Positions 6,371 through 47,003 of a stretch of 64,000 nt of DNA are shown here, one piece after another. Below the pieces are notes generated by a model. The model saw only the letters and a program-made list of their open reading frames with translations, did not search any database and had not been told where the DNA came from. The translations under genes and the position numbers were made by a program. Source of the DNA: Aduncisulcus paluster. Taxonomy: Eukaryota. Numbering within the stretch: the stretch's first letter is position 1; the number at the start of each line of letters is the position of its first letter. The stretch covers positions 1-64,000 of the forward strand of contig BQXS01012745.1 in assembly GCA_024181965.1 (NCBI GenBank). The letters run 5' to 3'.

Positions 6371-6845
6371 TATAAACAACAAAAATCCCAGATTTAAATC
6401 TTCACAGATGAATAAAAGAGAATATCATCTCAAATACTTTCCCAAATGGACATTTTTCATGTAATCCCGCCCTTTGTTTCCTTCAAATCCGTTAATACCC
6501 AAAGAAAAAACAAGGATGATCCAAATAAATGATAAATCAGAAAAGCTCATTGTTTATCTCTGTTGCAATCGAATTAAATTGATGTTCAGCAACTATCTNN
6601 NNNNNNNNNNNNNNNNNNTATAAACAACAAAAATCCCAGATTTAAATCTTCACAGATGAATAAAAGAGAATATCATCTCAAATACTTTCCCAAATGGACA
6701 TTTTTCATGTAATCCCGCCCTTTGTTTCCTTCAAATCCGTTAATACCCAAAGAAAAAACAAGGATGATCCAAATAATGATAAATCAGAAAAGCTCATTGT
6801 TTATCTCTGTTGCAATCGAATTAAATTGATGTTCAGCAACTATCT
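6371..6845. repeat. Assembly gap (N 6599-6618) with duplicated flanks
   Basis: 6371-6598 is repeated at 6619-6845 with a single 1-nt indel. Confidence 0.9.
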
Positions 6846-6920: not shown

Positions 6921-8001
6921 ATGGGTAAACTTAGTGAGAATATTGATACTATAATTTCGAAGTTGTTGAGTTTAAAACCTCTCGAAACCAAGAAGTTACC
7001 AAACATATCGGAAGAAAATGTCAGAGCCTTAGTATTGAAAGCCCGTGAAGTCTTCATACAGCAACCTATCTTACTTGAATTAGATGCTCCTATTAAGATT
7101 TGTGGAGATATTCATGGTCAATTCTGGGATTTACTCCGTTTATTCGAGTATGGAGGTTTCCCCCCCTCTCCCAACTATCTTTTTATGGGTGATTATGTTG
7201 ATAGAGGAAAGCAGAGTCTCGAATGCATCATTCTTTTGCTCTGTTTCAAAGTTAAGTTTCCAGTCAATTTCTTTTTATTAAGAGGGAACCACGAATGCGG
7301 CCAAATCAACAAATTGTACGGATTTTATGATGAATGCAAAAAGAGATATTCAACACGCCTGTGGAAAGTCTTTCTTGATTGTTTCAGCTGTCTTCCTCTT
7401 GCTGCTGTTATCGACGAGAAGATTTTCTGTACTCACGGAGGATTAAGTCCAGAATTGAACTCTTTAGATCAAATTAGGCGGATTTCTCGTCCTACTGAAG
7501 TCCCTGACGCCGGTCTTTTGTGTGATTTGTTGTGGTCTGATCCTGATCCTTCTATTCGTGGATGGGGAGAGAATGATCGTGGAGTTAGTTTCACATTTGG
7601 TGCAGATGTGGTTGAAGAGTTTCTTGAAGCAAACCGTTATGATCTTATTTGTCGTGCTCATCAAGTTGTGGAGGATGGATATGAATTCTTCGCTCAGCGT
7701 CGTTTAGTTACTGTTTTTTCAGCTCCTAAGTATTGTGGGTATGTAAATTCTTTTTTTCAATTTATTTTTTTCATTATTTTACAACACTTATCCAACATTT
7801 TAATTTGTTTATCCTCAAATATTCTATTTCAGTGAATTTGATAATGCCGGAGCCATGATGTCCGTGGACGAATCTTTGATGTGTTCGTTCCACATTTTAA
7901 AACCTGAGGACACGATATCATCTGGAGGATATGGTGGTGGTGCTGGTGTTAGACCCCCAACTCCTCCCAGGACCAAGAAGAGGGGAAGAAGAGAAAAATA
8001 A
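6921..8001 (+). CDS. PP1: Serine/threonine protein phosphatase PP1 catalytic subunit; exons 6921-7738 and 7833-8001
   Basis: GDIHGQ, GDYVDRG, LRGNHE, HGGLSP, DLLWSDP and [13 protein letters not shown] motifs. Removing a GTATGT...TTCAG intron (7739-7832) restores [22 protein letters not shown] and a C-terminal TPPR. Confidence 0.95.
7739..7832 (+). other. Spliceosomal intron (94 nt) in PP1
   Basis: GTATGT...TTTCAG, AT-rich; removal restores the conserved PP1 sequence. Confidence 0.92.
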
Positions 8002-8858: not shown

Positions 8859-9296
8859 CACTAGATATCTCTCCGCAGAAAGAAGATCAATGGATATGAC
8901 TGAGTGAGATCGATATCTATTTTTAGATTCAATCTCTCTCAATCAATTACACCTTCTGCCAGAAGAATACAATAATTTTAACAATTTAAATCCCTTTAAT
9001 TCAATTGAATCTGCAAGGTTTAGTTTAGTAATGATCCATTATTAATGTGGTTCCTTATGCAAATGAAAATCGAGATTTTCCAAAATAATTTGTTAATAAA
9101 ATCGGGAAATTCCTTTAAAAATCGACCAATATATTTCCATAGATGAACAATTCTGAAATATACATTTTAATAAATTCAATAATAGACCCCTACAGTCGTG
9201 GGGAAAATTTATTGGCTGGTTAGCATGTATATATTAAAAATTGAACATTATTATACTTAAAATGCCAAAAAACAAATGATATTTATTATATGTCAT

Positions 9297-11645
9297 CTAA
9301 TGACCAGTAATATTGTGTGACAACAGGAGATCAATTTCTTCAGGCTCTTCTTTCTTCCATTTTGGAAGTGTTGACCCCATTGACATAGAATTTTCACATC
9401 CAACAAGGAGAAGATTCGGGATAAATTCAATTCTTTCCAATACTGTTTTTGTTTGAGCAGTGAGACATGGAGGAACTTCAACAGGGAAAGGATCGAACAC
9501 TCCCAATACTTTACCTTCTTTTCCAGCCCTAACCCCAACAAATTCACCTCCAATCATTTTAATAATTTTTGAGAAAGCGTGGATATCTGGGTGCAAAATA
9601 TCTACAATATGTTCACCAAATTCCCGTTGTTTAAGAATATCCATGAACATTCGCACAACTCTTTCACCTAAGTTCCTAAGAAGGATGGCACGAGTATCAC
9701 CACCACTTTCACAGGCGGTTTGAGCTGCACAATGAATCATTTTACACATTTTGAACATATGAGATGTAACTCCATTCACTATATCGGATGTTCCAGTTGT
9801 ATATACATGAGGAGACTGTGCGTTCATTATCTGTGTGCAACTTGCGACAACAATATCAACCCAAGTCGTCACACAGGAGTCCATGCAAACTCTGATGTTT
9901 GAAACAGCCGTCTTTGTAAAATATTCTTGAAGAAATTCAGGTCTTACAGAATCGTTATTCGTAAGGATAGAAAGGAAAGGCCCAAGAGATGTGGCCAATT
10001 GATTGATGGTTTTAATAGAGGTCAAAAGAGTGGACGATATATTCACAAGATAGGGTTTGGTATCAGCTACATCAGCTATCCTTCCATCCACACTGGATTG
10101 TCCAGCCCCATGGCCGTCCATTGATTCTCCAGCAATCATTGGAGAAGGGAGTTTCAGAGATTCTTCAATAGACATCCATACATCCTTCACAATACGACCT
10201 ACGACCTGTTGAACATGCTGCGTCGTTTTAACGAGCATGTGGAGTCCCAATTCGTAAACTAGCTTGAAATATGGGAGGGGATGGATACAAAGGAACGAAG
10301 AGGACTTCTCATAAAAAAAAGAGCTCTTGAGACGTTCGAGAATACTCAAGCATTCCTCACAGAGACTTCGAACACACATCTCAATGCATTCGAAGCCCCC
10401 ATCAGTCGAAGAGGGCGTTGGAAGGGACGAGTGGGGCATTGCATCCTCAACTCGGCCAATAAACAAATCAAACAACAATTCACAAAGGCGTTCCTCTGAA
10501 AAGGAAGATACCAATGGAAGAAAGGTGGTTTTTCTTCTTAAACTAGGGTATAAATGACTTCTAGAAGCCTGAGAAAGTGAAATGGTGGACATTGTTGGAA
10601 TATTGATTTCATCACATCGTAAACTTTGTGAAATTAGAACAGGACGCAGAATATCATATGTTTTCGCCATTTCATTCACCTTTCCACCCAAACTCGGAGA
10701 TTGAACATGAGGTGGTCGTTTGGCACCTGCAGGAAGAATCGAAGAACTCATTCTTCTTCCTTGAAATGATAACTGAGGAGCAAGATACATTGCTATTGGC
10801 CCATCATTTCCCAAAGCATACTCAATAATCCGAGGAATATGTTGCTCAGGATGCAAAAAGGAGGCGGCAACATTTTCAAGGGTTTGTTCAAAAGCACGAA
10901 CAATAAGTTCGAGATTGAATTCACCAAACTGAATACTGATCTTTGAAATTGGAGCGGCAGATAAAAATAGATTAACAATGGTTTCTCTTTCATCCATCTG
11001 TTCGAGTAAGTTCGTTATTGGGATAAGAGTTTTGTAGAAAGAAGAATGGTTCTGATTTTTCCAAAGTTCCTCCAATTTTAACAGTAAGACTCGCTTCACT
11101 TGAGAGTATATATGCTCAATACATTTCAGCTGTAAAAATTCAATATAAACATCCCTTTCAAATAGACTATTAGGAGTGTGATGCTTTGCTTCACGTAAAA
11201 CTTCAACAGTATTCTCCAATATTGGATTTGGATGTATGTTTTTGGAAATAGAATTGAAGAACAATATGTCAGCCGGATAATTTTGAGGATAATCAAGAAT
11301 ATCAATGAAATTTTTCTCAATTTCTTCAAAGAATGCATCTGTTGAATCCCTAAGCTTCTTATTCTCGCAGAAAGCAACAATAATAGAATGTAGGTTATTG
11401 AGAACAGATTTCTCAACAGTCGCAAATTCTTTTCTTCTCATTTTGGAACTCATCGTCGAGACCTTTTCAGCCACTAAATGAACAGTTTTATGGACGCTTT
11501 CGGCGCGCTCTTGGAGTCGTGAGACCTTTTCTTTTGCGTATACTATGTTGCTTTTATATACATCCAAAGATGATAATAATCTTCTATATAATTCTTTTTT
11601 TTCTTTTTCAACAATTTCTATTCTTTCTTTTAATTTTGAACTCAT
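9297..11645 (-). CDS. Helical-rod protein, probable exocyst subunit Sec10/EXOC5-like
   Basis: 782 aa with an N-terminal coiled coil. The C-terminal LGERVVRMFMDILKQ...DIHAFSKII...NLLLV resembles the Sec10 C-terminus as I recall it. Confidence 0.5.
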   Translation of the reverse strand: MSSKLKERIEIVEKEKKELYRRLLSSLDVYKSNIVYAKEKVSRLQERAESVHKTVHLVAEKVSTMSSKMRRKEFATVEKSVLNNLHSIIVAFCENKKLRDSTDAFFEEIEKNFIDILDYPQNYPADILFFNSISKNIHPNPILENTVEVLREAKHHTPNSLFERDVYIEFLQLKCIEHIYSQVKRVLLLKLEELWKNQNHSSFYKTLIPITNLLEQMDERETIVNLFLSAAPISKISIQFGEFNLELIVRAFEQTLENVAASFLHPEQHIPRIIEYALGNDGPIAMYLAPQLSFQGRRMSSSILPAGAKRPPHVQSPSLGGKVNEMAKTYDILRPVLISQSLRCDEINIPTMSTISLSQASRSHLYPSLRRKTTFLPLVSSFSEERLCELLFDLFIGRVEDAMPHSSLPTPSSTDGGFECIEMCVRSLCEECLSILERLKSSFFYEKSSSFLCIHPLPYFKLVYELGLHMLVKTTQHVQQVVGRIVKDVWMSIEESLKLPSPMIAGESMDGHGAGQSSVDGRIADVADTKPYLVNISSTLLTSIKTINQLATSLGPFLSILTNNDSVRPEFLQEYFTKTAVSNIRVCMDSCVTTWVDIVVASCTQIMNAQSPHVYTTGTSDIVNGVTSHMFKMCKMIHCAAQTACESGGDTRAILLRNLGERVVRMFMDILKQREFGEHIVDILHPDIHAFSKIIKMIGGEFVGVRAGKEGKVLGVFDPFPVEVPPCLTAQTKTVLERIEFIPNLLLVGCENSMSMGSTLPKWKKEEPEEIDLLLSHNITGH

Positions 11646-14641: not shown

Positions 14642-15334
14642 TTTGTTGGATGTGTATGTAGTTCGACAAAAAAATATGTTTCCAACAAAATTCTTGGAAC
14701 TGTCCTAAATGAGCGTTGGTTGTAAAAATTTCATTTTAATACGGTATCATTTTTAAAATTATAAATATTATTGCGAGAGATTTATTATATTGGTCGGTCA
14801 ACTCCTTCGAAAATGAAAATTCCATGTTTTGAGAGCGTCTTTCTAATTTTGACAGGAAAACATATTTATAGTATTGTAATTATTACTATTATTACTGATC
14901 ACAACAAAAATATCTTATTTAGACGATATTCTCAATAGATATGCTCAGACCCGCTATTATCTGAAGTTTTTATGATGCTTGGACAAATATAAGTATTTTT
15001 GACATATAACTTGTCAAAAAAGTTACAATATCATCTCACTCCTTCATTATTGATATCATTCTGATCTTCTATGGGATCGAGTTCAACTCATAGATCAAGT
15101 TGATCTGTCAAGGCGGTTTCGTATTTCCATTAATTTGAGTTTCAATGATGTGTTTATACATACTATTGCATATATAACATATGATATTTATGCTCCTTTC
15201 ATTGTTTTTGAATGTATTAAGACGTATATCAAAGACAATGGAGGTTTTTGGATAATATTTGATTTTATAATGCAAATTCCAAGCCCTTTTCGATCTGTAT
15301 TAATGTGTTGCATAGAAAAAATAACCATTTTTTC

Positions 15335-15409
15335 GTTGTCATAGTCAAATGGGAAAGACGTCGTGTGCTGAGCCATGCGGAAACCCAGGTTCGAGTCCTG
15401 GTGGTAACA
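15335..15409 (+). tRNA. tRNA-like gene of undetermined identity (aberrant 20-nt anticodon arm)
   Basis: 7-bp acceptor stem GTTGTCA/TGGTAAC plus discriminator A. D-arm GTC-AAATGGGAAA-GAC. T-arm CCAGG-TTCGAGT-CCTGG. A-box TAGTCAAATGG, B-box GGTTCGAGTCC, and T6 terminator at 15412-15417. Confidence 0.8.
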
Positions 15410-16642: not shown

Positions 16643-19600
16643 ATGTTACGATCAAGTTATCGAAACATTTCATCAATAGAACCACTTTATTCAGGAGGTC
16701 CGGCTGTCTTTTCTCCTGATAAAGATTTATTATATTGTATTCAAGATGAATCCGTTAATATCATTGAAACAGCATCATCAACAATTGTAAAACATATTGA
16801 TTTGAAGGCTAATTTGCTTACAGCATTATCAATCCATCCCAAAGGTCATATATTCGCTGCTGCTGCCAATTCATTAATGTTGTTTGTTGTTAATGCACTT
16901 TCTGGTGAAGTAATCAAGCAATTTCGTGCCCATGATGCTCCTATCGTTGATATAACCTTTCATCCCACCTTGGATTTGTTTGCTACAGCAAGTGCCGACA
17001 GAACTGTACGGGTATTCGATTTCAATGGTCAATGTAAGTCGTATCTTCGTGGACACAAATCGATGGTTACTGGAGTTGCATTTAATCCTGTCCCTGAGGT
17101 TCCCCATCTTCTCTCCTATTCATCTGATAGTTCCCTTATTGTCTGGGATATCACAACCAATCGAATGATTCGTTCTTTTGATGAACACTTGGGAGGAATT
17201 AACTCAATATCAGTCATTCAATGTGATGGTGGTTGTATTATTGCGAGTGGATCCATGGATAAGTCAGTTTGCATATATATATACGATGAAGCTTCTGGAG
17301 AATATCATACTCATATCAGCAGGCCTATTTATAGAACAGCTGATTGTATTGTCATCAGGAAACGGATTGAATTGATAGAAAATAGTATATANNNNNNNNN
17401 NNNNNNNNNNNCCTGAGGTTCCCCATCTTCTCTCCTATTCATCTGATAGTTCCCTTATTGTCTGGGATATCACAACCAATCGAATGATTCGTTCTTTTGA
17501 TGAACACTTGGGAGGAATTAACTCAATATCAGTCATTCAATGTGATGGTGGTTGTATTATTGCGAGTGGATCCATGGATAAGTCAGTTTGCATATATATA
17601 TACGATGAAGCTTCTGGAGAATATCATACTCATATCAGCAGGCCTATTTATAGAACAGCTGATTGTATTGTCATCAGGAAACGGATTGAATTGATAGAAA
17701 ATAGTATATATTCCCAAGAACCACTCACTGTGAAAATATCCAATCCTGATGATACAATGACCAAAAAGAAGAAAAGGGGAAAGAAGAAAGTTATTTCAAA
17801 ACATGATAAACTCATGTCCATCAAGGAAAACATATTGCCGTTGTATGAAGTTGTTATAAGTTCCTCCGAAACCTGTGAGGTCTTCTGTGTGTCCGCCCTC
17901 ACTCTTAAGCCTTTTCCCGACTCAAAAGACGATATTATTAGATTTCCTGGAGCTCCTCTTCGTTCAGATTCCTTTATTTTCCCTGAACATTCTCTTCCTA
18001 CTGGGTCTTCTCAGGACAATCTTGAGGTGATAACCGATCTTCAGGTAGAAGAGGAAAGTGCTGAGAGTAGTGAAGACCAACAACAGAGCGAAGCAGACAA
18101 AAACAGTGTCGCTGTTCGTTATATGCGAAGTTTCAACGATGGTCTCATTTCCTTCTGTCTTTCTGACCTAACCATCCAGCTTATTACCTTGCATCCATTC
18201 CAGGTTGTGTGGAGTGTTTGTGGAGACATTGGTGAAATTAACGGGTGTGTTGTACTTTCTGATATGTCACATGAGAAAAGGAGTGAAGAGGAGGAGGAGG
18301 AGGAGGAAGGACTGAGTGACCTCCACGGTAGTCAAGGCACACTTGAATCAGATATTGCAAATCCTGACCAAGGCGATGTTCAAAGTGATTACTATTCTGT
18401 TAGTTCTGATTGTTGCCCTCGCTTTGTTGCTGTTTCCACTTTTTCCCCCTTTCTAAGAATAATTCATATCCCGTCACGCCAATGTCTCTCCATAGCTCGC
18501 TCAATACGAAGTGTTCTTTGTGTCTCTACTGATGGTGAGTATATCGCATGTGGAAGTGAGGATGGAAAGGTCTTCGTGTTCTCTGCTCTTGCCTTTAACT
18601 TGTCAGAGGATGAATTAGTTCTCAAAGGAATGGAGAAAAGAGGAGAATCACTCAGATCCATTCGTTCTTCCAGTAGGAAACAGATAAAAGAAGAAGAAGA
18701 GGAGGAAGAAGAGGAAGAAGAAGAGGAGGAAGAGGAAGATGAAGAGGAAGAGGAGGAAGAAGATATGGACAGCATTGATGATATACTTATGGAGGAAAGT
18801 CTTAATCCTATTTTCTCGAATGCCCCTCTTCATGCCCTCACACCCCAATGTCTGGCTGTGTGTGAAGGTATAGATTCCCCTGTGACGTGTGTTTCTCTTC
18901 ACAAGGGAATATTGTTGGCTGGGGATGATGATGGAAACATTTCAGAGTTTGACTTGAAAGATATTGCCAAAGAGCGGAATAGAAAGCTGAAAGAAACACA
19001 TTCATGTCCATCTGAAGTTGTTATTGGGCCCAAATACAAACACTCTGCACATAAAAAGCCAGTTATGACCATTGAAATGTCAAAATCCCTTGCCATGTAC
19101 GTTTCTGGGGGAATGGATAGGGTAGTCCGGGTTTGGGGAAGATTGGGAAGAAAAGAGAAGGAAGATAGAGAGAAAAAGGAACGTGACGGCGGATCTAAGG
19201 CCTTGTCGGATGCCTTTTCCGCCTTTGTTGCCCTGAAACAGTCTGAGGAAAAAGAAGGAGATATCTCTAGTGATGGTAAGAAAAAGAGCAAGAAAATCGC
19301 CTTATCGTCAACGAATATTCAGTTATTATCACTTTCCTTAGCCAAACCGGTCAGCTCACTGGCCCTTTCGCCTTGTTCCCCCGCTCTTTCTGTCTGTGTC
19401 AAAAATATGGTGTCTATTTTGAGTCTTTCAAGTTCAAAGGTGAAGTCCAAGAAGAAAATACAATCAAAAGGACACAGAAAAGATGGGAAAGGTTCTGAAC
19501 CAGCCACTGTTTCTGCAGGGAAGGTCTTGAATCGCCTTCAAGGTTGTGTGAGTGCCACAGGCTGTGTTTCGTATATTAACAATGGAAATGGTGTTGTTTG

Positions 19601-23400: not shown

Positions 23401-26400
23401 AACTTTATTCTATCCGAAAAAGGGAGGTTTTACGCAATAGAAAACAGATAATAGGAGGATCTCGTACTCTTATTGACCATTGTGGGAGAAATCCAACCCA
23501 GCCAAAGTCTGATAAGGAATTGGATTCATCAGCTTTGAAAACAATTGGAAAAAACAATGACACCAATTTTGGCGGTCATGTCATGGTTTTTCTTCCATCT
23601 CCCACACACTGTTCCACTGCACAGACCCAATTCTTTCGACTCATGCATGTGGTTGAAGAAGAGGCATTGTATGTTTCTAAGAGTGAGTTAAACCATCCTC
23701 GACAACGATTCTTTGTCATGATGAATCGGTATGCCAACTTAAATGAAATAGAAGCTCTTCAATTACTTAATGCATTCAGAATCGTATATTCACCAATTTA
23801 TGCCACTTCTTCTGCTTTCGAATGGGGGAACATTATTCGTTCTACTCCTGTTTTATCCAACCGTGAGAAGAAATCACTCGATAAATCTTTCTCAAAGAAA
23901 TCAATATCTTCTCATATACCTGATAATGAATCATTTGCCCTTGGACTCGTTCCTCTTTCTATCCATGAGTATTCCCCTCTAAGTGAACACCTATATATTT
24001 GTGAAGATACGGGAGAACACATTAAAGTTATATTCACAACAAATTTTGCAGAGACATCCATCACCGTTGATGGTGTATCTTGTGTGATTGATGGGGGAAT
24101 CATGAGCATTCCACTTTATGATATCATTTCACACACAAATTCACTAATATTTGCTCCTGTTTCGGCTTCTTCAAGAATTCAAAGAAAGGGAAGAGCTGGA
24201 AGAACTTGCAAAGGGGAATGTATCACACTTGAATGGAAAAGACTTGAAACAAAGGGAATATTTGAACAGATTGATGATAAAAAAGAACAATCCTACATGA
24301 TATCTTCCCCACAGATACTAAGACTTGATTTATCAACTCCTATGCTTCAGTTAATGGGAATTGGAATTGATATTAATTCTATTCCACTTCTTACTAAGCC
24401 CAGTGGTGATCAATTGGAGAAAACAGCCTTTGAACTTCAGCGTTTAGGAGCAGTATCAGGCCCAATTAATCTCAAACACCAGGCTTTTCGAGATCTTAAG
24501 TTGACTGAAAATGGAAATACTCTTTCAAAGCTTCCATTGAGTTCTTTTNNNNNNNNNNNNNNNNNNNNGAAAAGACTTGAAACAAAGGGAATATTTGAAC
24601 AGATTGATGATAAAAAAGAACAATCCTACATGATATCTTCCCCACAGATACTAAGACTTGATTTATCAACTCCTATGCTTCAGTTAATGGGAATTGGAAT
24701 TGATATTAATTCTATTCCACTTCTTACTAAGCCCAGTGGTGATCAATTGGAGAAAACAGCCTTTGAACTTCAGCGTTTAGGAGCAGTATCAGGCCCAATT
24801 AATCTCAAACACCAGGCTTTTCGAGATCTTAAGTTGACTGAAAATGGAAATACTCTTTCAAAGCTTCCATTGAGTTCTTTTGTTGGAATGGCCTTTATCA
24901 AAACAAGAGAGTATGTTTTCAGTTCATTTTATGATTCTATTCAATCATTGACACACTTTAAAACGGATCCTTATTGTGGCTTTAATCAAGAGAAATTACA
25001 AAATATCGCCGAATTGTATTTATCTTGTATGTGTGTTTATTTAGAGTGGGGAAATGAGTTATATTCCAGTATTGCAAATACTAAAAACGAAGAAATATTT
25101 CGTGCATATTCGAAGTTTTTAGATAAATCGAGTGATATCGTATCTTTTGTACACATATTCATAACGTGGTTATCTGCTTCATGTTCACCTCAATTCGCAA
25201 CTTCAAATGGACTCAATCAGAATATGTGTGTCGCCGCGAAAGAAACTGTTGAAAACATTCTTCAAGTCTTTTCTAAATCTATTGATCTTCCAATTCAAGG
25301 AGGAGAATATTCCTCATTAATTGCTCAAAATATTGGTTTCCATCTTGTTCAAATCCTGTTGGATTGTCTAGGTGATCAAAAACACTCGCACATTGGGTAT
25401 CTATGTGACATTCGTGATGGATCGAATGGAATTGTTGATCTTTATTATAAAGTTAAGAATTCAGATGACTCATCTTCGATTTACAGATACAATCGGCGTG
25501 GAATGTCTAAATCAGATATTTTGGCAATTCCTTCGAAAGTATTTTTCATGGAAAAAATTATGACTTCATCATATGGTTCAATTTCCAAGAGAACGGATAA
25601 TATGATAAGTATTTGCGCAGGTCTTGACTCAGAAAACCCTTCAAATCTTGTCCGTCTATTTAGTTTAATTTCACACGGTTCAACTGTGTCCATTTCCCGA
25701 TTTGTTCCAAGAATCGGTGTTTTTGAATTAATATCCGACTTTATTCAGCAAATTGACCCGGCTTTTGAGAGTTTTATCTTTTGCAACAGTGATAATGATG
25801 GTGCTGAGTTGGAACCACCAGATGAATTGATGCCAATTCCGGATTTGAAAATCGAAGATGAGAATAATCGAATTAAATTCATTGATTTACATAGTTTAAT
25901 TGCTTATATTTCTCCAAAACAAGAACAAGCAATCAAAACTCATGGATCCCAACTTCTTTCACTTATTAATGCTGCTTGCTCACGAATCATTATTCCAAAC
26001 TCACCACATCGGAACCAGGCCCTTGTAGTTGGGGAAGCCTGTAAAATTCTGCATTTACACTTGTGCAAGGGGGATTATCCACTTGATCATAAGAGAAAGA
26101 GAGCATTTGCTGAGGTTCAAGTTGCTGACATAATCTCTCGTGGAATTACCGATTTCTCTGACTGTGCTTTTGTTGTTGGTGGATGCATGAATGGATCAAT
26201 TCTAAGAAGCGTTGATGCAAAAACCATGGATTCATTAAAAATTAGAGGAATTAAAGAAATAGAAGTCGATTTATTATGTGCAAATTCAAAAAGTGAAGGT
26301 ATGGTGCATCAAATTGGATTTTCTTTGAATTTTTCGTTTAATTATGCTGGAACGAGGAGTTTTATTGTTGAAACAACTTCTGAAAAGGCCGATTTGATTA

Positions 26401-28551: not shown

Positions 28552-31500
28552 TTATTTCTTTGAAGGCTTTGGTTTGGGCTTGGAACCTTTAGTAGGAGGC
28601 TTTTTAGCTTCAGAAGTTGGTTTTTCTTGAACCACAGCAGTTTCCGAGGTTTCGATTCTCTTACGAATCCTCTTCTTTCTCTTATGTTTATGTTTATGCT
28701 CCTCTTTCTCCTCTTCTTCCTCTTCCTCTTCTTCTTTACCACCAATTGTTTCCTCTTTTCCTTCCTCTTCACCTTCCTGATTCTCCCCATTATGTTCCTC
28801 TTCCTCTTCCTCAGCCTGTTCTTCCTCTTTCTTCTTCCTTTCTTCCTCTTCTTTCTTCTTCTTTTCCTCTTCCTCTTTCTTCTTCTTGTCCTCAGCCTCA
28901 AGCGCCTCTTTGGCCATGGAAACAAGGAGTTCAGACTTTTGCTTCCTTTCCTCATTGAGTTGAGAGATTTCCTCAAGTTCTTTAGAGAGTCTTTCAGAAA
29001 TTTCTTCACGAGCCTTGACTTTTTCTTGCCAATCCCTAAAAATAGAATATATATTTTTAGAAGCATTTATCATGATTTATAATACATACAAAACAATAAA
29101 ACAACAAAATAGAGTATAAATAAATAAATAAATAAATATCAAAATATGAATGATTATTGATCGAGTCTCAAATCTGATTGAAATAAATCGACATACGTAT
29201 GAATAGAGAGGAATATCCGGCGATTTGTAACACCACATAATGGTCACAAACATCACATGGCACCGATTTCACCGGCAAAAGAGAAGTCATTCTCTTCGCA
29301 TTATTAGCACGAATACACGCTGTTTGTTGTTATTATTCATATATACATCCATTATCAACCATATTCAGCCCATTTCAATCACAGACCAACCATTCAAACC
29401 ATTCAAATAAACAATATTAAAAATTAAAACATACTCGTCCCATTTCCCACTCTTCGCATAGTTAATAAATTCACCCAACTCAGTCAATTCTACTTGAACT
29501 TCCTCGAGTTTCTCTTCTTCTTGTTCCTTCTTTTGCTCAGCTTGCTTAAGCTGAGTGTTCAGTTTAACCTGAAGCTCCCGAAGAGCTTTCTTACGTTCTG
29601 TTACCATTTTCTTTGAAGAAGTCCTTGCCTGTGTGTGTTCAGCAAGCATTTGAGTCAATCTTTGAGTAGATCCTTTGATGCGTTCTACTTGTTTGTCATA
29701 TATATTTTCCATTCTTGAGAGCATCGTTTCACATGAACGTACAAGGACATCATGCGTACACACCTTATTCTTCATCTCCCCAAGGGTTCTTCCAATTCGT
29801 TTTAATCGCAATAACTCCATCATTAGCCGTTTAGGCTCCTCAAGACTGAAAATATGTTTGTTCTTCTCAGTCATCTTGTGCACATGCGTCATCGTGGCAT
29901 GTGATAGAGAATTACCGACCAATTCAACCGTTGTAATTGAGGAGGACACACAGAAACACCGGCATCCCAGATCACCAATGGATCCTGTTAAGAAATTGTT
30001 ACACATCTTGACAGAACGAAGATTGGGCAGCATTCCAAGTGCCAAGAGAAACAGAAACCCACTCATTCCGCCGATATGACATACATTGGCTCTGATATGT
30101 GTTAGAGAAGAAGCGTGGTGATCGTACATGGCAGTGCGTTCTGCGAATACAGAGAGAATGAAGGAGATAGAAGAAGAAGCGAAGACATTCAGCGATATCT
30201 TCATAAGTTCGGGAGAGAACATGAGCTCATCGTGACGATCTTTCAACGTAATCTCATCCTCAATAATTGTCCCGGCATCAGGATCATCATCTTCCAAGAT
30301 ATCATCCTCGGGGAAGTATGAATCTTCTTCCTCTTCCTCATATTCCTCCTCTTCTTCATCCCTCTCCTTGTCTGGATCATGAACAGTAAGAGTCGTATCT
30401 CCAGGAGAGGTTGAGATTAATGTCGGTGAGTTCACAGGTTCACCCTCGGAACCACTCGTTGACGAAGGAGAAGAACGAATCTCATCCATTTTGGACTCAT
30501 AATCCTTGAGTTTTCTCGCAGTTACAGCTCTAATCACATCCTTAATATCCTCCACAACTTTGGAGGCGGACTTTCCATCCTCTTTCAGAACAGAGGCAGC
30601 ACACCTCGATATATGACACATCAGAGAACGTAAACAAGGTCTCAGAAGAGCTTTTCCAATACTCCAAGCACCCTTTCCAATGGGATTTCCACTGATATTA
30701 ATGGATGATAGAGACGTTCTCCGTAATAATCTGGCAATATATTCAGCCCCTTTGGCAGTAATTCTATTGTTAGAAATATCTAAATGCTTAATACCATGAT
30801 ATGGGCGCCCATCTCCATCATAATGACCAGTGCTATCCATACTGGCGACGATCAGAGCTTCACAGAGCACACGACATCCTTTGTCACAAATATAACACTC
30901 GGAGAGATTCAATGATGTCAATGAACGGTTGGACATAATTGCTTTGGCAAGGGCATTGGCTCCATTGGCTCCAAGTTTGTTCTTAGAGAGACTAAAAACT
31001 TTGAGACCTCCTTCTCCAGGAGAAAGAGCACATGAAGCGAGAGAATATATTCCACGAGCAGTGATTCCATTTTCAGAAAGATCAAGAACCCGCAAAGTAC
31101 GATTCTGAGCGAGTCCACCAGCAAGAATTTCAGTTCCAACATTACCAATGCTATTAGCAGCAAGTTTCAATACTTTTAATGTCGTATTTACGTGTAATAA
31201 AGCAGCAAATGATTCACAAGCAACTGTGCCTCCTTCCCCAATGACATTTCGAGAAAGACCCAAGAATTGGAGGGTTCTATTATTCTTTACGGCGGCAGCA
31301 ATAGCTGCACCAGATGGAGCATCAATTGAATTGTCTCTTTGTTGGGGTTTATCAGTTCCAAGATCGATATGTTCAAGCTTACTTGATCCAGCAGCTATTT
31401 CTTCAGCAAGAGCAATGGCTCCTTCTGGACCAATATCATTACAAGCTGCATCAATTCTTACAAGCTTTGGGGTTGTTTTTGCAAGCTGCAATAAACCCAT

Positions 31501-31776
31501 AAACCCAATGTCACCAATAAGATTGTTTGTAATATCAATTCGAGTTATGGGAAAGCCTTCTAACCTTTTTGCCAATGTAACAGCTGCCGAAACTCCAATT
31601 CTACACTTTTGAAGAGACAGAAACTGAGAATTCGCATCATATTTCACTAATTGCATAAATTGTTCGAGTCCAGCAGCCGTAGGCCGTTCTCCACTTTCTT
31701 TGCATACCTTTAAATAAATATCTTGTATTAATTCTTTGTTTAACATTGCAAAGAGTGTCAAATTACTTGGAAACAT
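28552..31776 (-). CDS. Ribonuclease-inhibitor-type LRR protein with C-terminal coiled coil and acidic tail (941 aa); exons 31776-29435 and 29035-28552
   Basis: Repeats of LxxLxLSxNxIGxxG. The donor GTATGT at 29434 and the acceptor TTTAG ending at 29036 join in frame (KWDE-DWQEKVK), merging two ORF-track entries. Confidence 0.8.
29036..29434 (-). other. Long spliceosomal intron (399 nt) containing an internal splice-site-flanked structured element
   Basis: GTATGT...TTTAG with in-frame joining; about 3-5 times longer than the other introns in the window. Confidence 0.75.
29197..29319 (-). ncRNA. Candidate structured intronic RNA / poison cassette exon
   Basis: GC-richer island with three hairpins containing G-U pairs on the minus strand, flanked by CAG and GTATGT. 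Confidence 0.45.
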
Positions 31777-31982: not shown

Positions 31983-32309
31983 TTAAAAAAACTGCTCAAG
32001 AGTTTGAGCGGAATGAGTTGGAGGGACAATAGCTTTCAAAAATTCAAGATCTGGCCGAGAAGCAACGGCTCTACTAACATGTTCATAACTAATTCGAGTT
32101 TGACCAGAACTTGATGCTTCTGATAAAGAGGCAGAGGCGAGATAAGTTGTGAACCAACCAGCAAGTCCATTGACAATATGAACAGCTTCAGAACTCATAA
32201 TGGCTGTGCTTGGATCCGATTTCATGATTTTTTTGGTTTTTGCAAGAGGATATGGTTTCAGCCCGGGTTGAGATTGGATAGAACTTGAGCTACTTGTTAT
32301 TGGATCCAT
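31983..32309 (-). CDS. H2A-like histone-fold protein (CHRAC1/POLE4/NF-YC class), copy 1
   Basis: YPLAKTKKIMKSDP...SSEAV...ISYEHV...LEFLKAIVP. Confidence 0.75.
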   Translation of the reverse strand: MDPITSSSSSIQSQPGLKPYPLAKTKKIMKSDPSTAIMSSEAVHIVNGLAGWFTTYLASASLSEASSSGQTRISYEHVSRAVASRPDLEFLKAIVPPTHSAQTLEQFF

Positions 32310-32353
32310 GTATAATATTCAATGTATTACTATTATAATATTGACTTAAAAAT

Positions 32354-32680
32354 TTAAAAAAACTGCTCAAGAGTTTGAGCGGAATGAGTTGGAGGGACAA
32401 TAGCTTTCAAAAATTCAAGATCTGGCCGAGAAGCAACGGCTCTACTAACATGTTCATAACTAATTCGAGTTTGACCAGAACTTGATGCTTCTGATAAAGA
32501 GGCAGAGGCGAGATAAGTTGTGAACCAACCAGCAAGTCCATTGACAATATGAACAGCTTCAGAACTCATAATGGCTGTGCTTGGATCCGATTTCATGATT
32601 TTTTTGGTTTTTGCAAGAGGATATGGTTTCAGCCCGGGTTGAGATTGGATAGAACTTGAGCTACTTGTTATTGGATCCAT
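32354..32680 (-). CDS. H2A-like histone-fold protein (CHRAC1/POLE4/NF-YC class), copy 2 (identical)
   Basis: Identical to 31983-32309 and carries the unique upstream region. Confidence 0.8.
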   Translation of the reverse strand: MDPITSSSSSIQSQPGLKPYPLAKTKKIMKSDPSTAIMSSEAVHIVNGLAGWFTTYLASASLSEASSSGQTRISYEHVSRAVASRPDLEFLKAIVPPTHSAQTLEQFF

Positions 32681-32963
32681 GTATAATATTCAATGTATTA
32701 CTATTATAATATTGACTTAAAAATTTAAAACAGAAAGGCTAACGTTATTTAAAATCACTAGAGCTTCCGCTACAGGGAAAGAAGAGAGTTTTATTCATAG
32801 AGTGAGAATGAATAATTTTCTATTACATCTTAGATCAAATATGATATTCTAATTGGCAATTAAAGTTAAAAATAATATTTTCATCCAGCCCTCTAAAAGC
32901 TATTTCTCGTCATAAAAGAAACTTGGGTTTTCTGCGATTTTTTACCAGATTCAATTAATATAG

Positions 32964-35712: not shown

Positions 35713-36014
35713 CATGGAGAAACTAGTATCAACAATCATTGATAAAAGGGAGAATGAAAATAGGAGGAAGTGAAATAGAAGCCGGTGAACACTCACATCG
35801 TGGTTCCAGAAATAATCTCTCTGCCAGAGAGAGTGCCACTCTCAGTGAGAGAGAGTCTCCCTCTTCTTCAAATAAAACAATAATCCATTAATTTTGAAGT
35901 AAACAAATTTTAAGGCAGAAAAACAGCAATTTCTATATTATTATTCTTCAGAACACCCATACACGGTCAAACGATTGAAATCCGTGTTTCCGTCCACACT
36001 TTTCTCCTTTGAAA

Positions 36015-44500: not shown

Positions 44501-47003
44501 ACATTGAAAAATTGAATTCTAAATTTCTATCTCTTGTTCTTTGATTCCAATATGTTCCATCGGTACTTCTTTCCTCGATCGAGACACTCTCCGTCTTTTC
44601 ATGTTCAAAGGATGATCTAATTTTAGAATCTGATTGAGAAACAATGACCTTTTCAGGCTCATCTGCAGACAATTTAATTGAAGGGAATGTCTGGGTTGGA
44701 ATGGATCCTCCTCGAATTCCAGAACATAATCCCTCGACGCTATCAACAATCATCGTATTTTGATAATCTGTGGAAGTCACTCCGGAAGAGGATATAGCAA
44801 GGGAAAGCGATACCTGTGAATCCTCATCGCCTCCATGCGAATCGCTGTTATTTCCAATCTCAGTGAAAGAGGTCACAGAAGATGGGTCAAAGAAAGATGT
44901 TTGTGCGTTTGATGATATAAAAGATATCACTGAGACCAGAGGATTAAACGGGGCACTATCACCAGGCATTCTTTCTTCATGTACAGCTCCATTTGGTGAG
45001 GTTGAAGCGAATATCTCTCTGATCCAAGCTCTAAGATTATCATCAGAATACATGACGGAATCACTGAGACTTTGTTGGCCTGTGTCCGAAGAAATATCGG
45101 TGATACTACTTGATCGAGAAGCTGAACTCACAGTGAACATCTTTCCTTCACCTTCTCCATCTGCTTCGGATGTGTATGAAGAGGAAAGTAATTTTGTGTC
45201 ATCACTTTTTAATGTAAATGGAGAATTAAGACACTTATAATCTTCTAAATAGTGCGATTTGACATCAAAAACAGAACTTCTGACTTTACACCAATCAAGA
45301 GAACCATCTCCAGGGCGGTCAAAAATAATAATACACGTCTCAAAATCTGAATATATACGATTTTCAATGCAGTTTCCCCTNNNNNNNNNNNNNNNNNNNN
45401 AAGCTGAACTCACAGTGAACATCTTTCCTTCACCTTCTCCATCTGCTTCGGATGTGTATGAAGAGGAAAGTAATTTTGTGTCATCACTTTTTAATGTAAA
45501 TGGAGAATTAAGACACTTATAATCTTCTAAATAGTGCGATTTGACATCAAAAACAGAACTTCTGACTTTACACCAATCAAGAGAACCATCTCCAGGGCGG
45601 TCAAAAATAATAATACACGTCTCAAAATCTGAATATATACGATTTTCAATGATTTTGGGAGATGGATTAGATTGTGCTCCAATTTTAGCTGCGTGAGAAA
45701 GAACAGATGATGTTGATGAAGAAGAATAAGCTGAAGAGTGGATCGAAGAAGACGTTTCAGATCCAAGAGATTTTGTTGAACCTGCTGTACTAGAAATACG
45801 GGTGGTTGAAGAAACTCCCATTTCTGAATTGGCATGAGAACGCTTGGACCTGGGAGCTTTTGGGAGTGAATCTGGAACTTGACCCGTATTAGTGCCCGAT
45901 TTAAAGCCGCCTGACTGGTGATCAACAGAAGCAGACACAGAGGATGATCTCCTTCCCGTTGATCCATGAGTTGAATCTGATATTTGGAGTGATTCATTGT
46001 GCGTTATCTTCTCATCCTCTTCTTCCTCCTCCTTCTGATAACTCTGTTTCCATCTTGCCGATATGCATCCGATTACATATTCCTTCTCAGACCAAACAAA
46101 CCTTTTTGCGACACAAAGAGCATCACAGACAGAGACACATGCACCAGGAATATGTGAGAATGGAAGAGAAAGGGTATGATTGAGATGAAACGGAGAGGGA
46201 GAAAGAAAAGATGAGTTGGGTGGACAGAGGGATGTGGGATAAGCTGGTACATTAACTGTGATAAAAGGAGTGCTCGAACAAGTCGATGGGACCGTTTTTG
46301 TGGATTGAGAAAGTGATTTACCGGAAATAAGCCATGAAACATCCATTGTTTCACAAAACAATGCACAAACACGAGAGCAATTACAAAGACTTGAGGAACA
46401 AGATCTCAGAGCATTTTCAATATATTCATTAGAAAATATATCATCAATATCTGGCAATATAGAGTTAATTGTTGATTTTCGGATGCAATCAATGAAAGGT
46501 ATAGATTTAGCATGGATGAAGGTAGAAAGTGGTAAAGGTAATTTTATCCATCTAATTTGAGTTAATTGACGAATTATATGATTTTGAGGAAGTTGAAAAA
46601 CCGTTTTGGAAGTTTTATCTTCAGCAGCACCGATAATAACGTGATATCCGGTTCTAAGATATGCAACAAATGGACCAACTTTATAAATTTTATAATAATT
46701 ATTTATATCAGTGTGTTCACTATTAGGTATTCCCAAACGATTCTTGAGAGCTATATGAGCTTCTGGAATAGTATTGAATTTGTCATGGCCAGGAATCCCT
46801 TTATAAATCAATTCACCAGAGACTGGATCGATAGACATAATGAAAACATAATCCAGCCAGATAAATGATGATAATATGAACTATCAAAGCGAATAAGGAG
46901 TGAATATCATGATAATAGTAAAAATGAGGATAAAGAGGTAAAATAAAAAACATACTGAATTTCCACATGGATCTATTAAAATATAATTTGTTGAATGTGG
47001 CAT
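38523..47003 (-). CDS. Divergent SAC9-like phosphoinositide phosphatase homolog, probably catalytically degenerate; exons 47003-46956 and 46880-38523
   Basis: IDPVSGELIYKGIPGHDKF, RWIKLPL, FCETMDVS and FHLNHTLSLPF resemble the plant SAC9 N-terminus as recalled (IDPTTG.L.Y.GKPG.D.F, QWVKIPL, FCDTRDIT, FVWNRWLSVPF). A phase-0 GTATGT...TAG intron lies at 46955-46881. A Cys-rich finger lies near 40195-40275. Confidence 0.6.
41148..42089. repeat. Exact in-frame tandem duplication, 468-bp unit
   Basis: Identical sequence at offset 468 (156 codons); probably an assembly artefact. Confidence 0.9.
45119..45651. repeat. Assembly gap (N 45381-45400) with duplicated flanks
   Basis: 45119-45369 equals 45401-45651. 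Confidence 0.92.
46881..46955 (-). other. Spliceosomal intron (75 nt) in the SAC9-like gene
   Basis: GTATGT...GATAG joins a 16-codon ATG exon in frame to an open stretch upstream of the ORF-track start. Confidence 0.75.

What the first reader, a model, noticed from the sequence alone, without database searches (positions are those of the whole stretch)
29197..29319. Structured 123-nt island inside a long intron, bounded by its own splice sites and carrying an in-frame stop (candidate RNA-switch poison exon or splicing-processed ncRNA)
Seen on the minus strand: the 399-nt intron contains a second perfect GTATGT donor at 29196. The first AG after the upstream donor is ...TAACAACAAACAG at 29322-29320. 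Using both sites splits the intron into 115 and 161 nt, close to the 75-141 nt of the other introns. The enclosed 123 nt is frame-preserving but reads GAC GTG TAT TCG TGC TAA TAA, so inclusion would truncate the protein. It folds into GAAGAGAA-TGAC-TTCTCTTT (29297-29278), GCCGGT-GAA-ATCGGT (29276-29262) and GTGA-TG-TTTGTGAC..GTTACAAA-TCGC (29256-29220). Its ends pair (CGTGT/ATACG), bringing acceptor and donor together. A mutually exclusive 7-bp helix CCGGTGA/TCGCCGG (29275-29269 with 29223-29217) is also possible. It does not match the TPP riboswitch consensus. Inference: structure-controlled alternative splicing or NMD, a novel riboswitch-like element, or an intron-hosted or circular ncRNA in an intron-poor protist.
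Basis: partly seen in the sequence, partly recalled or inferred. Interest (0 to 1): 0.75.

Follow-up and report, generated by a model that had tools for sequence, protein, structure and literature searches.

The report
Folded island inside a long intron
A 399-base intron of a protist gene holds a normal-composition, hairpin-forming stretch with splice-site-like borders, but the only transcripts on record remove the whole intron, so a regulated "poison exon" or riboswitch is unproven and an ordinary folded intron segment is at least as likely.

Summary
The window is from Aduncisulcus paluster, a free-living relative of Giardia.

Both protein records for the gene, one from the genome annotation and one from an independent transcriptome, read straight across 29435>29035. 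The intron is therefore removed whole.

The 123-nt "exon" folds only marginally better than chance (z -2.2). An 89-nt two-hairpin core (29299-29211) does better: z -3.2, top 0.14% of windows, sense strand only.

The internal acceptor lacks the ATATTC motif and T-rich tract found at all 5 verified intron 3' ends in the window. There is no Rfam match and no C/D boxes. One hairpin has H/ACA-pocket geometry, but with AUA instead of ACA, no H box and no significant rRNA target.

Read mapping could not be done, so inclusion, circular RNA or a stable small RNA stay untested.

My odds:
- folded intron RNA (cis-acting or H/ACA-like): 0.4
- chance or neutral: 0.3
- skipped, dead or poison exon: 0.2
- riboswitch: 0.02

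Interest is modest.

The parts
29435..31656 (-). Exon 1 of the host gene (LRR plus coiled-coil protein, NCBI name ADUPG1_013846). It ends in phase 2 (..GAC GA|).
   Evidence: tblastn places P0001 residues 1-741 here at 100% identity. Pfam finds LRR_6, LRR_1, LRR_4 and LRR_8.
29036..29434 (-). 399-nt intron, GTATGT...TTTTTAG, removed as one piece in the records available.
   Evidence: P0001 and P0002 both read ..GKWDE|DWQEK.. across 29435>29035.
28552..29035 (-). Exon 2: the E/K-rich coiled-coil tail plus the stop codon.
   Evidence: tblastn places P0001 residues 742-901 at 29034-28555, 100% identity.
29320..29434 (-). It is G/T-rich (G 23%, C 4%), has no AG before its last two bases, and contains a 9-nt tandem unit and AATGG-type repeats. 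It has no ATATTC and no T-tract before its final CAG.
   Evidence: Composition and AG test (0 of 20,000 mononucleotide shuffles lack AG). Tandem repeat at 29388-29407.
29197..29319 (-). The 123-nt island: G+C 0.42, lying between the first AG and the second GTATGT.
   Evidence: Sequence. G+C compared with non-coding windows. Fold. The in-phase frame has stops, and one other frame is open with an intermediate codon score.
29211..29299 (-). 89-nt structured core made of two hairpins. The MFE structure equals the centroid.
   Evidence: z -3.18, 1 of 200 shuffles. 26 of 18,106 genomic windows are as stable.
29278..29297 (-). Hairpin 1: 8 bp with a 4-nt loop.
   Evidence: the 24-nt piece has z -3.04.
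29217..29275 (-). Hairpin 2: a 7-bp lower stem, an internal loop of 7+8 nt (or 6+7 nt if the stem is read as 12 bp), an 11-12-bp G.U-rich upper stem and an 8-nt loop. This is H/ACA-pocket-like geometry.
   Evidence: z -3.32, 1 of 200. Its two stems sum to 19 bp, second only to one 20-bp hit among the 26 descriptor hits in 128 kb.
29211..29216 (-). ATATTC directly after hairpin 2. It can be read as an AUA box plus 3 nt, or as a copy of the intron 3'-end motif.
29191..29196 (-). Internal GTATGT, a perfect donor hexamer followed by CG where the verified donors have T or A.
29084..29089 (-).
29116..29146 (-). (TTTA)n microsatellite in the AT-rich 3' segment.
29040..29050 (-). ATATTCTATTT, the 3' splice-signal motif of the true acceptor.
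   Evidence: This 11-mer occurs only twice in the window, both times at intron 3' ends (7819 and 29050).

Best explanation
The 399 nt are one intron that the cell removes whole. The island is not part of the mRNA.

I read the island's 89-nt core (29299-29211) as a piece of folded intron RNA on the sense strand rather than an exon. On this view the AG and GTATGT at its borders are bystanders, left unused because the only acceptor carrying this organism's 3' signal (ATATTC plus a T-rich tract) is the one at 29036.

Two mechanisms fit.
- About 0.25: a cis-acting stem-loop module that packs away part of an over-long intron. The other verified introns in the window are 75-141 nt. This has been described for the 'long' introns of Giardia, Spironucleus and Trichomonas.
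- About 0.15: a small guide RNA of the one-pocket H/ACA type, trimmed out of the excised intron.

Shown: the skip junction, the fold statistics, the strand specificity and the composition island. Inferred: any function at all, and which of the two mechanisms applies.
For: - Skip junction in 2 of 2 records, one from the genome annotation and one from an independent transcriptome.
- The core fold has z -3.18 and hairpin 2 has z -3.32, each with 1 of 200 shuffles as stable, and the MFE equals the centroid.
- Only 26 of 18,106 89-nt windows (0.14%; 0.146% of 6151 windows matched for G+C) are as stable.
- The antisense strand has z -0.31, so the fold depends on G.U pairs of the sense transcript.
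- G+C is 0.42 against 0.30 +/- 0.06 for 560 non-coding windows. The other places reaching 0.42 are a short exon, two copies of a 111-aa ORF, a tRNA and one unassigned spot.
- The internal acceptor lacks ATATTC and has T 27% / pyrimidine 37% in its last 30 nt. The 5 verified 3' ends have 47-60% / 60-70% and all carry ATATTC within 9-43 nt of the end. The chance of 5 of 5 is about 2e-7, though the motif was chosen after the fact.
- Literature (passages read): long metamonad introns have internal base pairing proposed to hold the splice sites at the spacing of short introns (PMC6679479). Giardia and Trichomonas H/ACA candidates have one or two stems but a single pocket (PMC3228867).
- Hairpin 2 has a 14-15-nt spacing from pocket to ANA box. 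Its stems sum to the second-highest total of 26 descriptor hits (one 20-bp hit beats its 19 bp), and it gives the best conserved rRNA match of the 26.
Against: - For the 123 nt as delimited, the fold is marginal: 6 of 200 shuffles, and the 4.4-9.8% tail of genomic windows. For the whole intron z is -1.78.
- Pairing between the two flanks is no better than shuffles: -35.1 against -35.3 +/- 4.2 kcal/mol.
- With the splice signals held single-stranded, the effective end-to-end distance is 96 nt. Shuffled interiors give 62 +/- 9, and 99.5% of 200 shuffles are as short or shorter. The 'packing' role therefore has no statistical support of its own.
- Against H/ACA: the box is AUA, not ACA. There is no H box or hinge. 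No Rfam match. The best conserved rRNA target is only 3+5 bp, and 6% of shuffled pockets do as well. That test used other eukaryotes' rRNA, not this organism's.
- The AUA is also the start of an ATATTC motif, which explains it equally well.
- This reading does not explain why a perfect GTATGT sits right at the island's 3' edge, or why the length is 3n.
- No related sequence exists to test conservation.
Confidence: 0.4

Rival explanations
1. Nothing special. This is an ordinary long intron that grew by repeats and perhaps a captured DNA fragment. The fold, the extra GTATGT motifs and the 3n length are coincidences picked out by a reader scanning 64 kb. The island leaves with the lariat and is degraded.
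For: - Both flanks are low-complexity (9-nt tandem unit, AATGG-type repeats, (TTTA)n), as expected for neutral growth.
- About 10-13 equally stable folds occur per 128 kb of strand. In the 89-nt list all but 2 start inside long ORFs.
- There are 26 H/ACA-like descriptor hits in 128 kb.
- GTATGT occurs three times in this intron, so one near any boundary is not rare.
- The first AG falling at the island's start follows from the AG-free repeat unit upstream.
- There are no boxes, no family match and no significant target.
- The window is mostly coding, so a captured fragment would have coding-like G+C and could keep one open frame, as frame 2 does.
Against: - Several modest oddities coincide in one 130-nt stretch: a G+C island (5% tail), a fold in the 0.15-0.26% tail matched for G+C, strand specificity, and a donor hexamer at the edge.
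- No source gene was found for the open frame. The only 2 hits are tandem-repeat proteins with 6 and 3 matching stretches, which I discount.
- Nothing similar exists elsewhere in the window.
Confidence: 0.3
2. A cassette exon that is dead or nearly always skipped, or the reader's active poison exon. On this reading two ordinary-size introns (115 and 161 nt) flank a 123-nt exon whose inclusion stops translation after 5 new codons. The fold could hide or expose its splice sites.
For: - The island lies between the intron's first AG and a perfect GTATGT. Its length is 3n, and the flanking pieces are near the 75-141 nt of the other introns.
- All 4 other introns end at their first AG.
- The 106-nt interior upstream of the AG contains no AG despite 32% A and 23% G (0 of 20,000 shuffles).
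- The internal acceptor has AATAAC about 10 nt upstream and an A/C-rich run. This loosely resembles the fused branch-point/3' motif of diplomonads quoted in PMC6679479.
- The composition is exon-like.
Against: - Only the skip junction is seen in 2 of 2 records, and no shorter product was found.
- The acceptor lacks ATATTC and the T-tract found at 5 of 5 real 3' ends.
- Sub-intron 1 has a composition (G 23%, C 4%) unlike real introns (G 4-8%).
- The AG-free run is explained by a repeated AG-free unit.
- The in-phase frame has 4 stops and a codon score of -0.39. A long-dead exon should also have lost its G+C, and the one open frame is out of phase with both borders.
- The donor hexamer is followed by CG where real donors have T or A.
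Confidence: 0.2
3. Two-step (recursive) removal. The stretch ATATTC, pyrimidines, ATAC, then GTATGT at 29216-29191 looks like an intron 3' end abutting a new donor. The intron could be taken out as 238 + 161 nt and leave the same mRNA.
For: - ATATTC and a pyrimidine run lie directly upstream of the internal GTATGT.
- Joining exon 1 to 29196 would recreate the original ..GA|GTATGT junction.
- The final product would equal the observed skip junction.
Against: - The would-be 3' site ends in AC, not AG.
- The first step would still span 238 nt.
- No lariat or intermediate data exist.
Confidence: 0.03
4. A metabolite-sensing riboswitch that gates splicing.
For: There are alternative, mutually exclusive helices around 29276-29217.
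Against: - No Rfam family matches at gathering score anywhere in the window. At E<=10, 28900-29600 gives only chance-level rows.
- The host is an LRR/coiled-coil gene with no metabolic link.
- No conservation data are available.
Confidence: 0.02

Closest known systems
Internal base pairing in 'long' spliceosomal introns of metamonads (Giardia Rpl7a, Spironucleus Rpl30/Rps4, Trichomonas), PMC6679479
   Same: - Same broad lineage: Aduncisulcus is a fornicate, like the diplomonads.
- GTATGT-type donor.
- The intron is several times longer than the usual size and holds a stable internal stem-loop.
- Predicted end-to-end distance is 96 nt, close to the 75-141 nt of the other introns.
   Different: - In those species the stems join regions near the splice sites. 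Here only a local 89-nt core stands out.
- Flank pairing and effective distance are no better than shuffles.
- This organism's 3' signal is ATATTC plus a T-tract, not a fused CTRAC..CAG.
Intron-encoded box H/ACA snoRNAs, and the one-pocket or one-stem H/ACA candidates of Giardia and Trichomonas (PMC3228867)
   Same: - Lies on the sense strand of a host intron.
- Hairpin with a 7-bp lower stem, a 6-8 nt two-sided pocket and an upper stem.
- An ANA triplet sits directly after the lower stem, 14-15 nt from the top of the pocket.
- Size is 65-90 nt.
   Different: - AUA instead of ACA.
- No H box or hinge, and the first hairpin has no pocket.
- No Rfam match.
- The best conserved rRNA target is only 3+5 bp (p about 0.06).
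- The 3' end and accumulation of the RNA are untested.
Poison (PTC-carrying) cassette exons and riboswitch-gated splicing (fungal and plant TPP riboswitch introns; recalled, not looked up)
   Same: - An internal AG and GT delimit a 3n segment with an early in-frame stop.
- Alternative helices lie near the sites.
   Different: - No inclusion isoform is on record.
- The acceptor lacks the local 3' signals.
- No aptamer family matches.
- The host gene has no known feedback logic.
Recursive splice sites ('ratchet points') of long introns in animals (recalled)
   Same: A 3'-end-like signal is followed immediately by a donor hexamer that would regenerate the 5' site.
   Different: The junction reads AC|GT, not AG|GT, and the intron is only 399 nt.

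Membership tests
Box H/ACA snoRNA | Hairpin-hinge-hairpin-tail architecture with an H box (ANANNA) in the hinge | tested here: not met
   Only 2 nt separate the two hairpins, with no ANANNA there. The only ANANNA (AGAGAA) lies inside the hairpin 1 stem (read).
Box H/ACA snoRNA | ACA box 3 nt from the mature 3' end | tested here: not met
   The triplet after the lower stem is AUA (29216-29214). The mature 3' end could not be tested.
Box H/ACA snoRNA | Pseudouridylation pocket with 14-16 nt between the top of the pocket and the box | tested here: met
   Lower stem 7 bp, pocket 6-7 + 7-8 nt, spacing 14-15 nt. The same descriptor gives 26 hits in 128 kb.
Box H/ACA snoRNA | Two-sided complementarity to rRNA or snRNA around a target U | tested here: inconclusive
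   Against 10 full environmental eukaryote rDNA loci, the best conserved site is 3+5 bp in SSU, present in 4 of 10 loci. 6% of 300 shuffled pockets do as well. It ranks first of the 26 descriptor hits. The organism's own rRNA was not available.
Box H/ACA snoRNA | Match to a curated family model | tested here: not met
   No Rfam hit at gathering score. At E<=10 only DdR17 (elsewhere in the region, E 0.38) and STnc460 (E 1.5) appear.
Box C/D snoRNA | C box (RUGAUGA) and D box (CUGA) brought together by a terminal stem | tested here: not met
   Inspecting by eye finds one C-like GUGAUGU, with no CUGA downstream and no terminal stem. No Rfam hit.
Poison / cassette exon | Inclusion junctions present in transcripts | not testable with these tools
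2 of 2 protein records show only the skip junction, and no shorter product was found.
Poison / cassette exon | Functional 3' splice signal upstream of the exon | tested here: not met
   No ATATTC anywhere in the 115 nt upstream. T is 27% and pyrimidines 37% in the last 30 nt. The 5 verified 3' ends all have ATATTC, with 47-60% T and 60-70% pyrimidines.
Poison / cassette exon | In-frame premature stop on inclusion | tested here: met
   GA+C GTG TAT TCG TGC TAA TAA.
Riboswitch | Aptamer matching a known class, or shown ligand binding | tested here: not met
   No Rfam riboswitch family matches. Ligand binding is not testable here.
Structured long intron of metamonads | Internal pairing that brings donor and branch/acceptor to the spacing of short introns | tested here: inconclusive
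   The constrained MFE gives 96 nt of exterior distance, within the 75-141 nt range. Shuffles give 62 +/- 9, and the flank duplex equals the shuffle mean. Only the local core is significant.

The most novel reading that the evidence does not exclude
The island is a working, structure-gated poison exon in a free-living fornicate. It would be spliced in through a diplomonad-style A/C-rich branch/acceptor (AATAAC..CAG) that differs from the ATATTC/T-rich signal of the organism's constitutive introns. The two-hairpin core would decide whether its AG and GTATGT are exposed. That would mean two classes of 3' splice signal and RNA-structure-controlled unproductive splicing in a deep-branching, intron-poor protist.
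Probability: 0.07. Interest if true: 0.7.

Novelty: new member of a known kind. Interest (0 to 1): 0.3.

Why it matters
If the fold is functional, it would extend to a free-living fornicate either of two known patterns. One is the structured long intron known from Giardia, Spironucleus and Trichomonas. The other is the intron-hosted guide RNA, which PMC3228867 (passage read) calls highly unlikely in Giardia and Trichomonas because their introns are few and short.

None of the 12 papers listed by my search combining 'snoRNA' with names of free-living metamonads contained the word snoRNA (89 papers held at least 2 of the 5 terms, 12 were shown).

A side result may be more useful than the island itself. 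All five verified introns in this window share GTATGT donors and an ATATTC motif near the 3' end, and the four short ones end at their first AG. This gives a simple test for checking intron calls in this poorly annotated genome.

If the island is chance, the finding is ordinary.

Tried and rejected
- No whole genome is held for the window, so I could not search for paralogous copies or for the organism's own rRNA.
- Earlier scan notes: nothing by place, words or sequence.
- Copies of the intron or island in the window: none (blastn, tblastx).
- Origin of the intron by duplication of flanking exon sequence: the direct repeats D2 and D4 looked suggestive. The best intron-exon local alignment (score 22) is within the shuffle null (mean 19.3, 95th percentile 24). 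Rejected.
- Long-range 'zipper' between the two flanks: a perfect 10-bp pair exists. The duplex energy of -35.1 equals the shuffle mean (49% and 45% of 500 shuffles are as good). Rejected as a significant feature.
- Giardia ncRNA 3'-end motif CCTTYNHTHAA (PMC3510501): 7 matches against 6.0 expected, none in the intron. Rejected.
- Coding relic: the 53-codon open frame (29329-29171) gave 2 hits among 1.84 billion representatives. Both are tandem-repeat proteins matching in 6 and 3 stretches, so I treat the scores as repeat-inflated.
- Orthologues of the host protein's C-terminal half: only the protein itself and its transcriptome twin. No comparative test of the intron was possible.
- C/D box reading: rejected by eye and by Rfam.
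- Supplementary files (for example the Giardia and Trichomonas H/ACA sequences of PMC3228867) were not opened. They could have allowed a direct comparison of hairpin architecture.
Full report
**What is there**

On the minus strand an 815-codon open frame ends at ..GGG AAA TGG GAC GA|GTATGT (donor at 29434). A second frame resumes after ..TTTTTAG| at 29035. Between them lie 399 nt.

- The first AG of the intron is at 29321-29320.
- A second perfect GTATGT starts at 29196.
- The pieces are 115, 123 and 161 nt.
- Inclusion of the 123 nt would read GA+C GTG TAT TCG TGC TAA TAA.

**Organism and gene**

A protein search with the C-terminal half of exon 1 found two proteins at 100% identity.
- P0001 is labelled by NCBI as hypothetical protein ADUPG1_013846 of Aduncisulcus paluster.
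- P0002 is an ORF from the EukProt transcriptome set Carplike_NY0171.

Pfam sees only leucine-rich repeats in exon 1 and nothing in the E/K-rich exon 2.

I read the main text and Table 1 of the genome announcement (PMC9933649). The organism is a free-living fornicate, related to Giardia.

**Splicing on record**

Both proteins read ..GKWDE|DWQEK... tblastn places P0002 residues 1-72 at 29649-29434 and residues 73-155 at 29034-28786, and P0001 likewise, all at 100% identity.

So 2 of 2 records, one of them from an independent transcriptome assembly, use the skip junction 29435>29035. A search restricted to shorter proteins found no truncated or intron-retaining product (197 candidates, none scoring).

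This shows the dominant mRNA. It cannot exclude a rare or NMD-degraded isoform, because such isoforms would not appear as long ORFs.

**Is the fold more than chance?**

- MFE -32.1 kcal/mol, z -2.20, 6 of 200 shuffles as stable.
- Against 5056 real 123-nt windows from both strands, 9.8% are as far or further below the energy expected from their composition. Among the 1630 of those windows matched for G+C, 4.4% fold at least as stably.
- This is marginal.

The signal sits in a smaller core.
- 29299-29211 (89 nt, two hairpins) has z -3.18.
- The second hairpin alone (29275-29217) has z -3.32.
- Each has 1 of 200 shuffles as stable, and the MFE equals the centroid.

Across the window:
- 26 of 18,106 89-nt windows (0.14%) are as stable, in 13 loci including this one.
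- 15 of 18,160 59-nt windows (0.08%) are as stable, in 10 loci. This locus is missed there because of the step register.
- Among windows matched for G+C the figures are 0.146% of 6151 and 0.26% of 3510.
- That is about one such fold per 10 kb of strand, or roughly a 4% chance per 399-nt intron. I chose the boundaries after seeing the fold.

The antisense strand does not fold (z -0.31, 65 of 200). The structure therefore belongs to the sense transcript and leans on G.U pairs.

The whole intron has z -1.78 (4 of 100).

**Composition**

In 560 non-coding 120-nt windows the mean G+C is 0.30 (sd 0.06), and 29 windows (5.2%) reach 0.42. They fall at these places:
- a short exon (7833-),
- the tRNA-Ser region,
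- two copies of a 111-aa ORF (32023-32473),
- one unassigned spot (35730-),
- this island.

The flanks are low-complexity. A 9-nt tandem unit and AATGG-type repeats lie upstream, and (TTTA)n lies downstream.

The island is therefore the one complex, normal-G+C stretch in the window's non-coding DNA that has no explanation. That favours constraint or recent arrival.

**Is it an exon?**

I verified four other introns.
- They start at 7739, 33059, 52283 and 46955, and are 94, 105, 141 and 75 nt long.
- For three of them, splicing yields an ATG-initiated open frame. The 33059 case restores an actin-family N-terminus.

All four, and the true 3' end of the 399-nt intron, share these features:
- They are T-rich: T 47-60% and pyrimidines 60-70% in the last 30 nt.
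- They carry ATATTC within 9-43 nt of the 3' end.
- The background rate of ATATTC is 0.0012 per nt. Five of five by chance is about 2e-7, though I picked the motif after seeing it.
- The 11-mer ATATTCTATTT occurs only twice in the window, both times at intron 3' ends.

The internal acceptor at 29320 differs.
- It has no ATATTC in the 115 nt before it.
- It has T 27% and pyrimidines 37% in its last 30 nt.
- It follows a G-rich, C-poor segment (G 23%, C 4%, against G 4-8% in real introns).

- All four comparison introns end at their first AG.
- The 106-nt interior of 'sub-intron 1' has no AG despite 32% A and 23% G (0 of 20,000 mononucleotide shuffles). However, the stretch is built from a repeated AG-free unit, so these are not independent trials.
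- The acceptor's AATAAC..CAG loosely recalls the fused branch/acceptor motifs of diplomonads quoted in PMC6679479.

Coding potential:
- The in-phase frame has 4 stops and a codon score of -0.39.
- One other frame is open from 29329 to 29171, with a score of 0.066. That lies between true coding windows (0.21 +/- 0.10) and out-of-frame windows (-0.23 +/- 0.14), but the frame is out of phase with both borders.
- Its peptide has no credible relative. The 2 hits are both tandem-repeat proteins matching in 6 and 3 stretches.

A recently dead exon does not fit the phases, and a long-dead one should have lost its G+C.

**Is it a known RNA?**

Rfam gives nothing at gathering score in the whole window. 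At E<=10 around the intron it gives only two chance-level rows. I saw no C/D box pair.

Hairpin 2 has the geometry of an H/ACA pocket:
- a 7-bp lower stem,
- a two-sided internal loop,
- an 11-12-bp upper stem,
- an ANA triplet directly after the lower stem, 14-15 nt from the top of the pocket.

A simple descriptor finds 26 such hairpins in 128 kb (8 ACA, 12 ATA, 6 AGA). This one has stems summing to 19 bp, beaten only by one hit of 20 bp.

But the triplet is AUA, there is no H box, and the AUA is also the start of an ATATTC motif.

To test for a target, I fetched 109 environmental eukaryote rDNA loci with a universal primer. I searched the 10 loci that hold full SSU and LSU.
- The best site conserved in at least 4 of the 10 loci is 3+5 bp in SSU.
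- 6% of 300 shuffled pockets do as well, and 20% in the other pocket register.
- It is the best of the 26 descriptor hits, but it is not significant.
- The organism's own rRNA was not available.

Passages of PMC3228867 say Giardia and Trichomonas H/ACA candidates have one or two stems and a single pocket. [quoted passage not shown]

**Does it help splicing?**

Passages of PMC6679479 describe internal base pairing in the long introns of Giardia, Spironucleus and Trichomonas. The authors propose that it holds the splice sites at the spacing of short introns.

Here a fold with the splice signals kept single-stranded leaves 96 nt of exterior distance, inside the 75-141 nt range. Shuffled interiors give 62 +/- 9, and 99.5% of 200 are as short or shorter. 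The flank-to-flank duplex (-35.1 kcal/mol) equals the shuffle mean.

The analogy is attractive, but only the local core is statistically unusual.

**Verdict**

Its statistical weight is moderate, and it sits in an 89-nt core rather than in the 123-nt 'exon'.

The intron is removed whole in the records available. Nothing supports the poison-exon and riboswitch readings, and the acceptor argues against them.

- I put 0.4 on a folded sense-strand intron RNA: 0.25 cis-acting, 0.15 H/ACA-like.
- I put 0.3 on chance or neutral sequence.
- I put 0.2 on a dead, skipped or poison exon.
- I put 0.03 on recursive splicing and 0.02 on a riboswitch.

Any functional reading would be a new member of a known kind. 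RNA-seq junction counts and a small-RNA blot would settle it.

Noticed in passing
window 7819-7829 (+), 29050-29040 (-), 33123 region, 52341 and 52415 regions, 46907 region: All five verified introns carry ATATTC within 9-43 nt of the 3' splice site. The background rate is 0.0012 per nt, so 5 of 5 is about 2e-7 (motif chosen after the fact). The 11-mer ATATTCTATTT occurs only at two intron 3' ends. All have GTATGT donors followed by A/T, and the four short ones end at their first AG. This is a candidate lineage-specific 3' intron signal.
   Followed up: partly
window 29320-29434 (-): The first 115 nt of the intron are a G/T-rich, C-poor array of AATGG/TTGA-type units. In every G run I checked by eye, the preceding base is T, and there is no AG until the last two bases.
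   Followed up: partly
P0002 residues ~160-536 against the window: The transcriptome-derived protein matches the gene up to the acidic repeat. It then continues for about 380 residues that are not encoded anywhere in the window. It may be a chimeric assembly, a collapse in the E-rich repeat, or a paralogue.
   Followed up: no
window 6599-6618, 17392-17411, 24549-24568, 45381-45400, 63243-63262: There are five 20-N scaffold gaps. At 24549 the same stretch of about 125 residues of the 2642-aa helicase/RBR-like ORF is repeated on both sides of the gap. This looks like an assembly duplication.
   Followed up: no
window 31983-32318 and 32354-32689 (-): Two identical 111-aa ORFs lie 371 nt apart. 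This is either a real tandem gene pair or an assembly artefact.
   Followed up: no
window 15185-15260 (+), beside tRNA-Ser(GCU) at 15335-15409: An AT-rich hairpin with a 12-bp upper stem, a two-sided internal loop and ATA after the lower stem is another descriptor hit. It has no significant rRNA target (p 0.35).
   Followed up: partly
window ~8945 (-) and ~10401 (-): These are the most stable local folds in the window: -34.5 and -35.1 kcal/mol per 89 nt. The window at 8945 starts at the edge of the non-coding gap 8943-9299. The one at 10401 lies inside an ORF.
   Followed up: no
window 35730-35870 (+): An unassigned stretch of normal G+C (0.43-0.47) lies directly after the ORF that ends at 35712. 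It could be a short exon, a UTR or an RNA gene.
   Followed up: no
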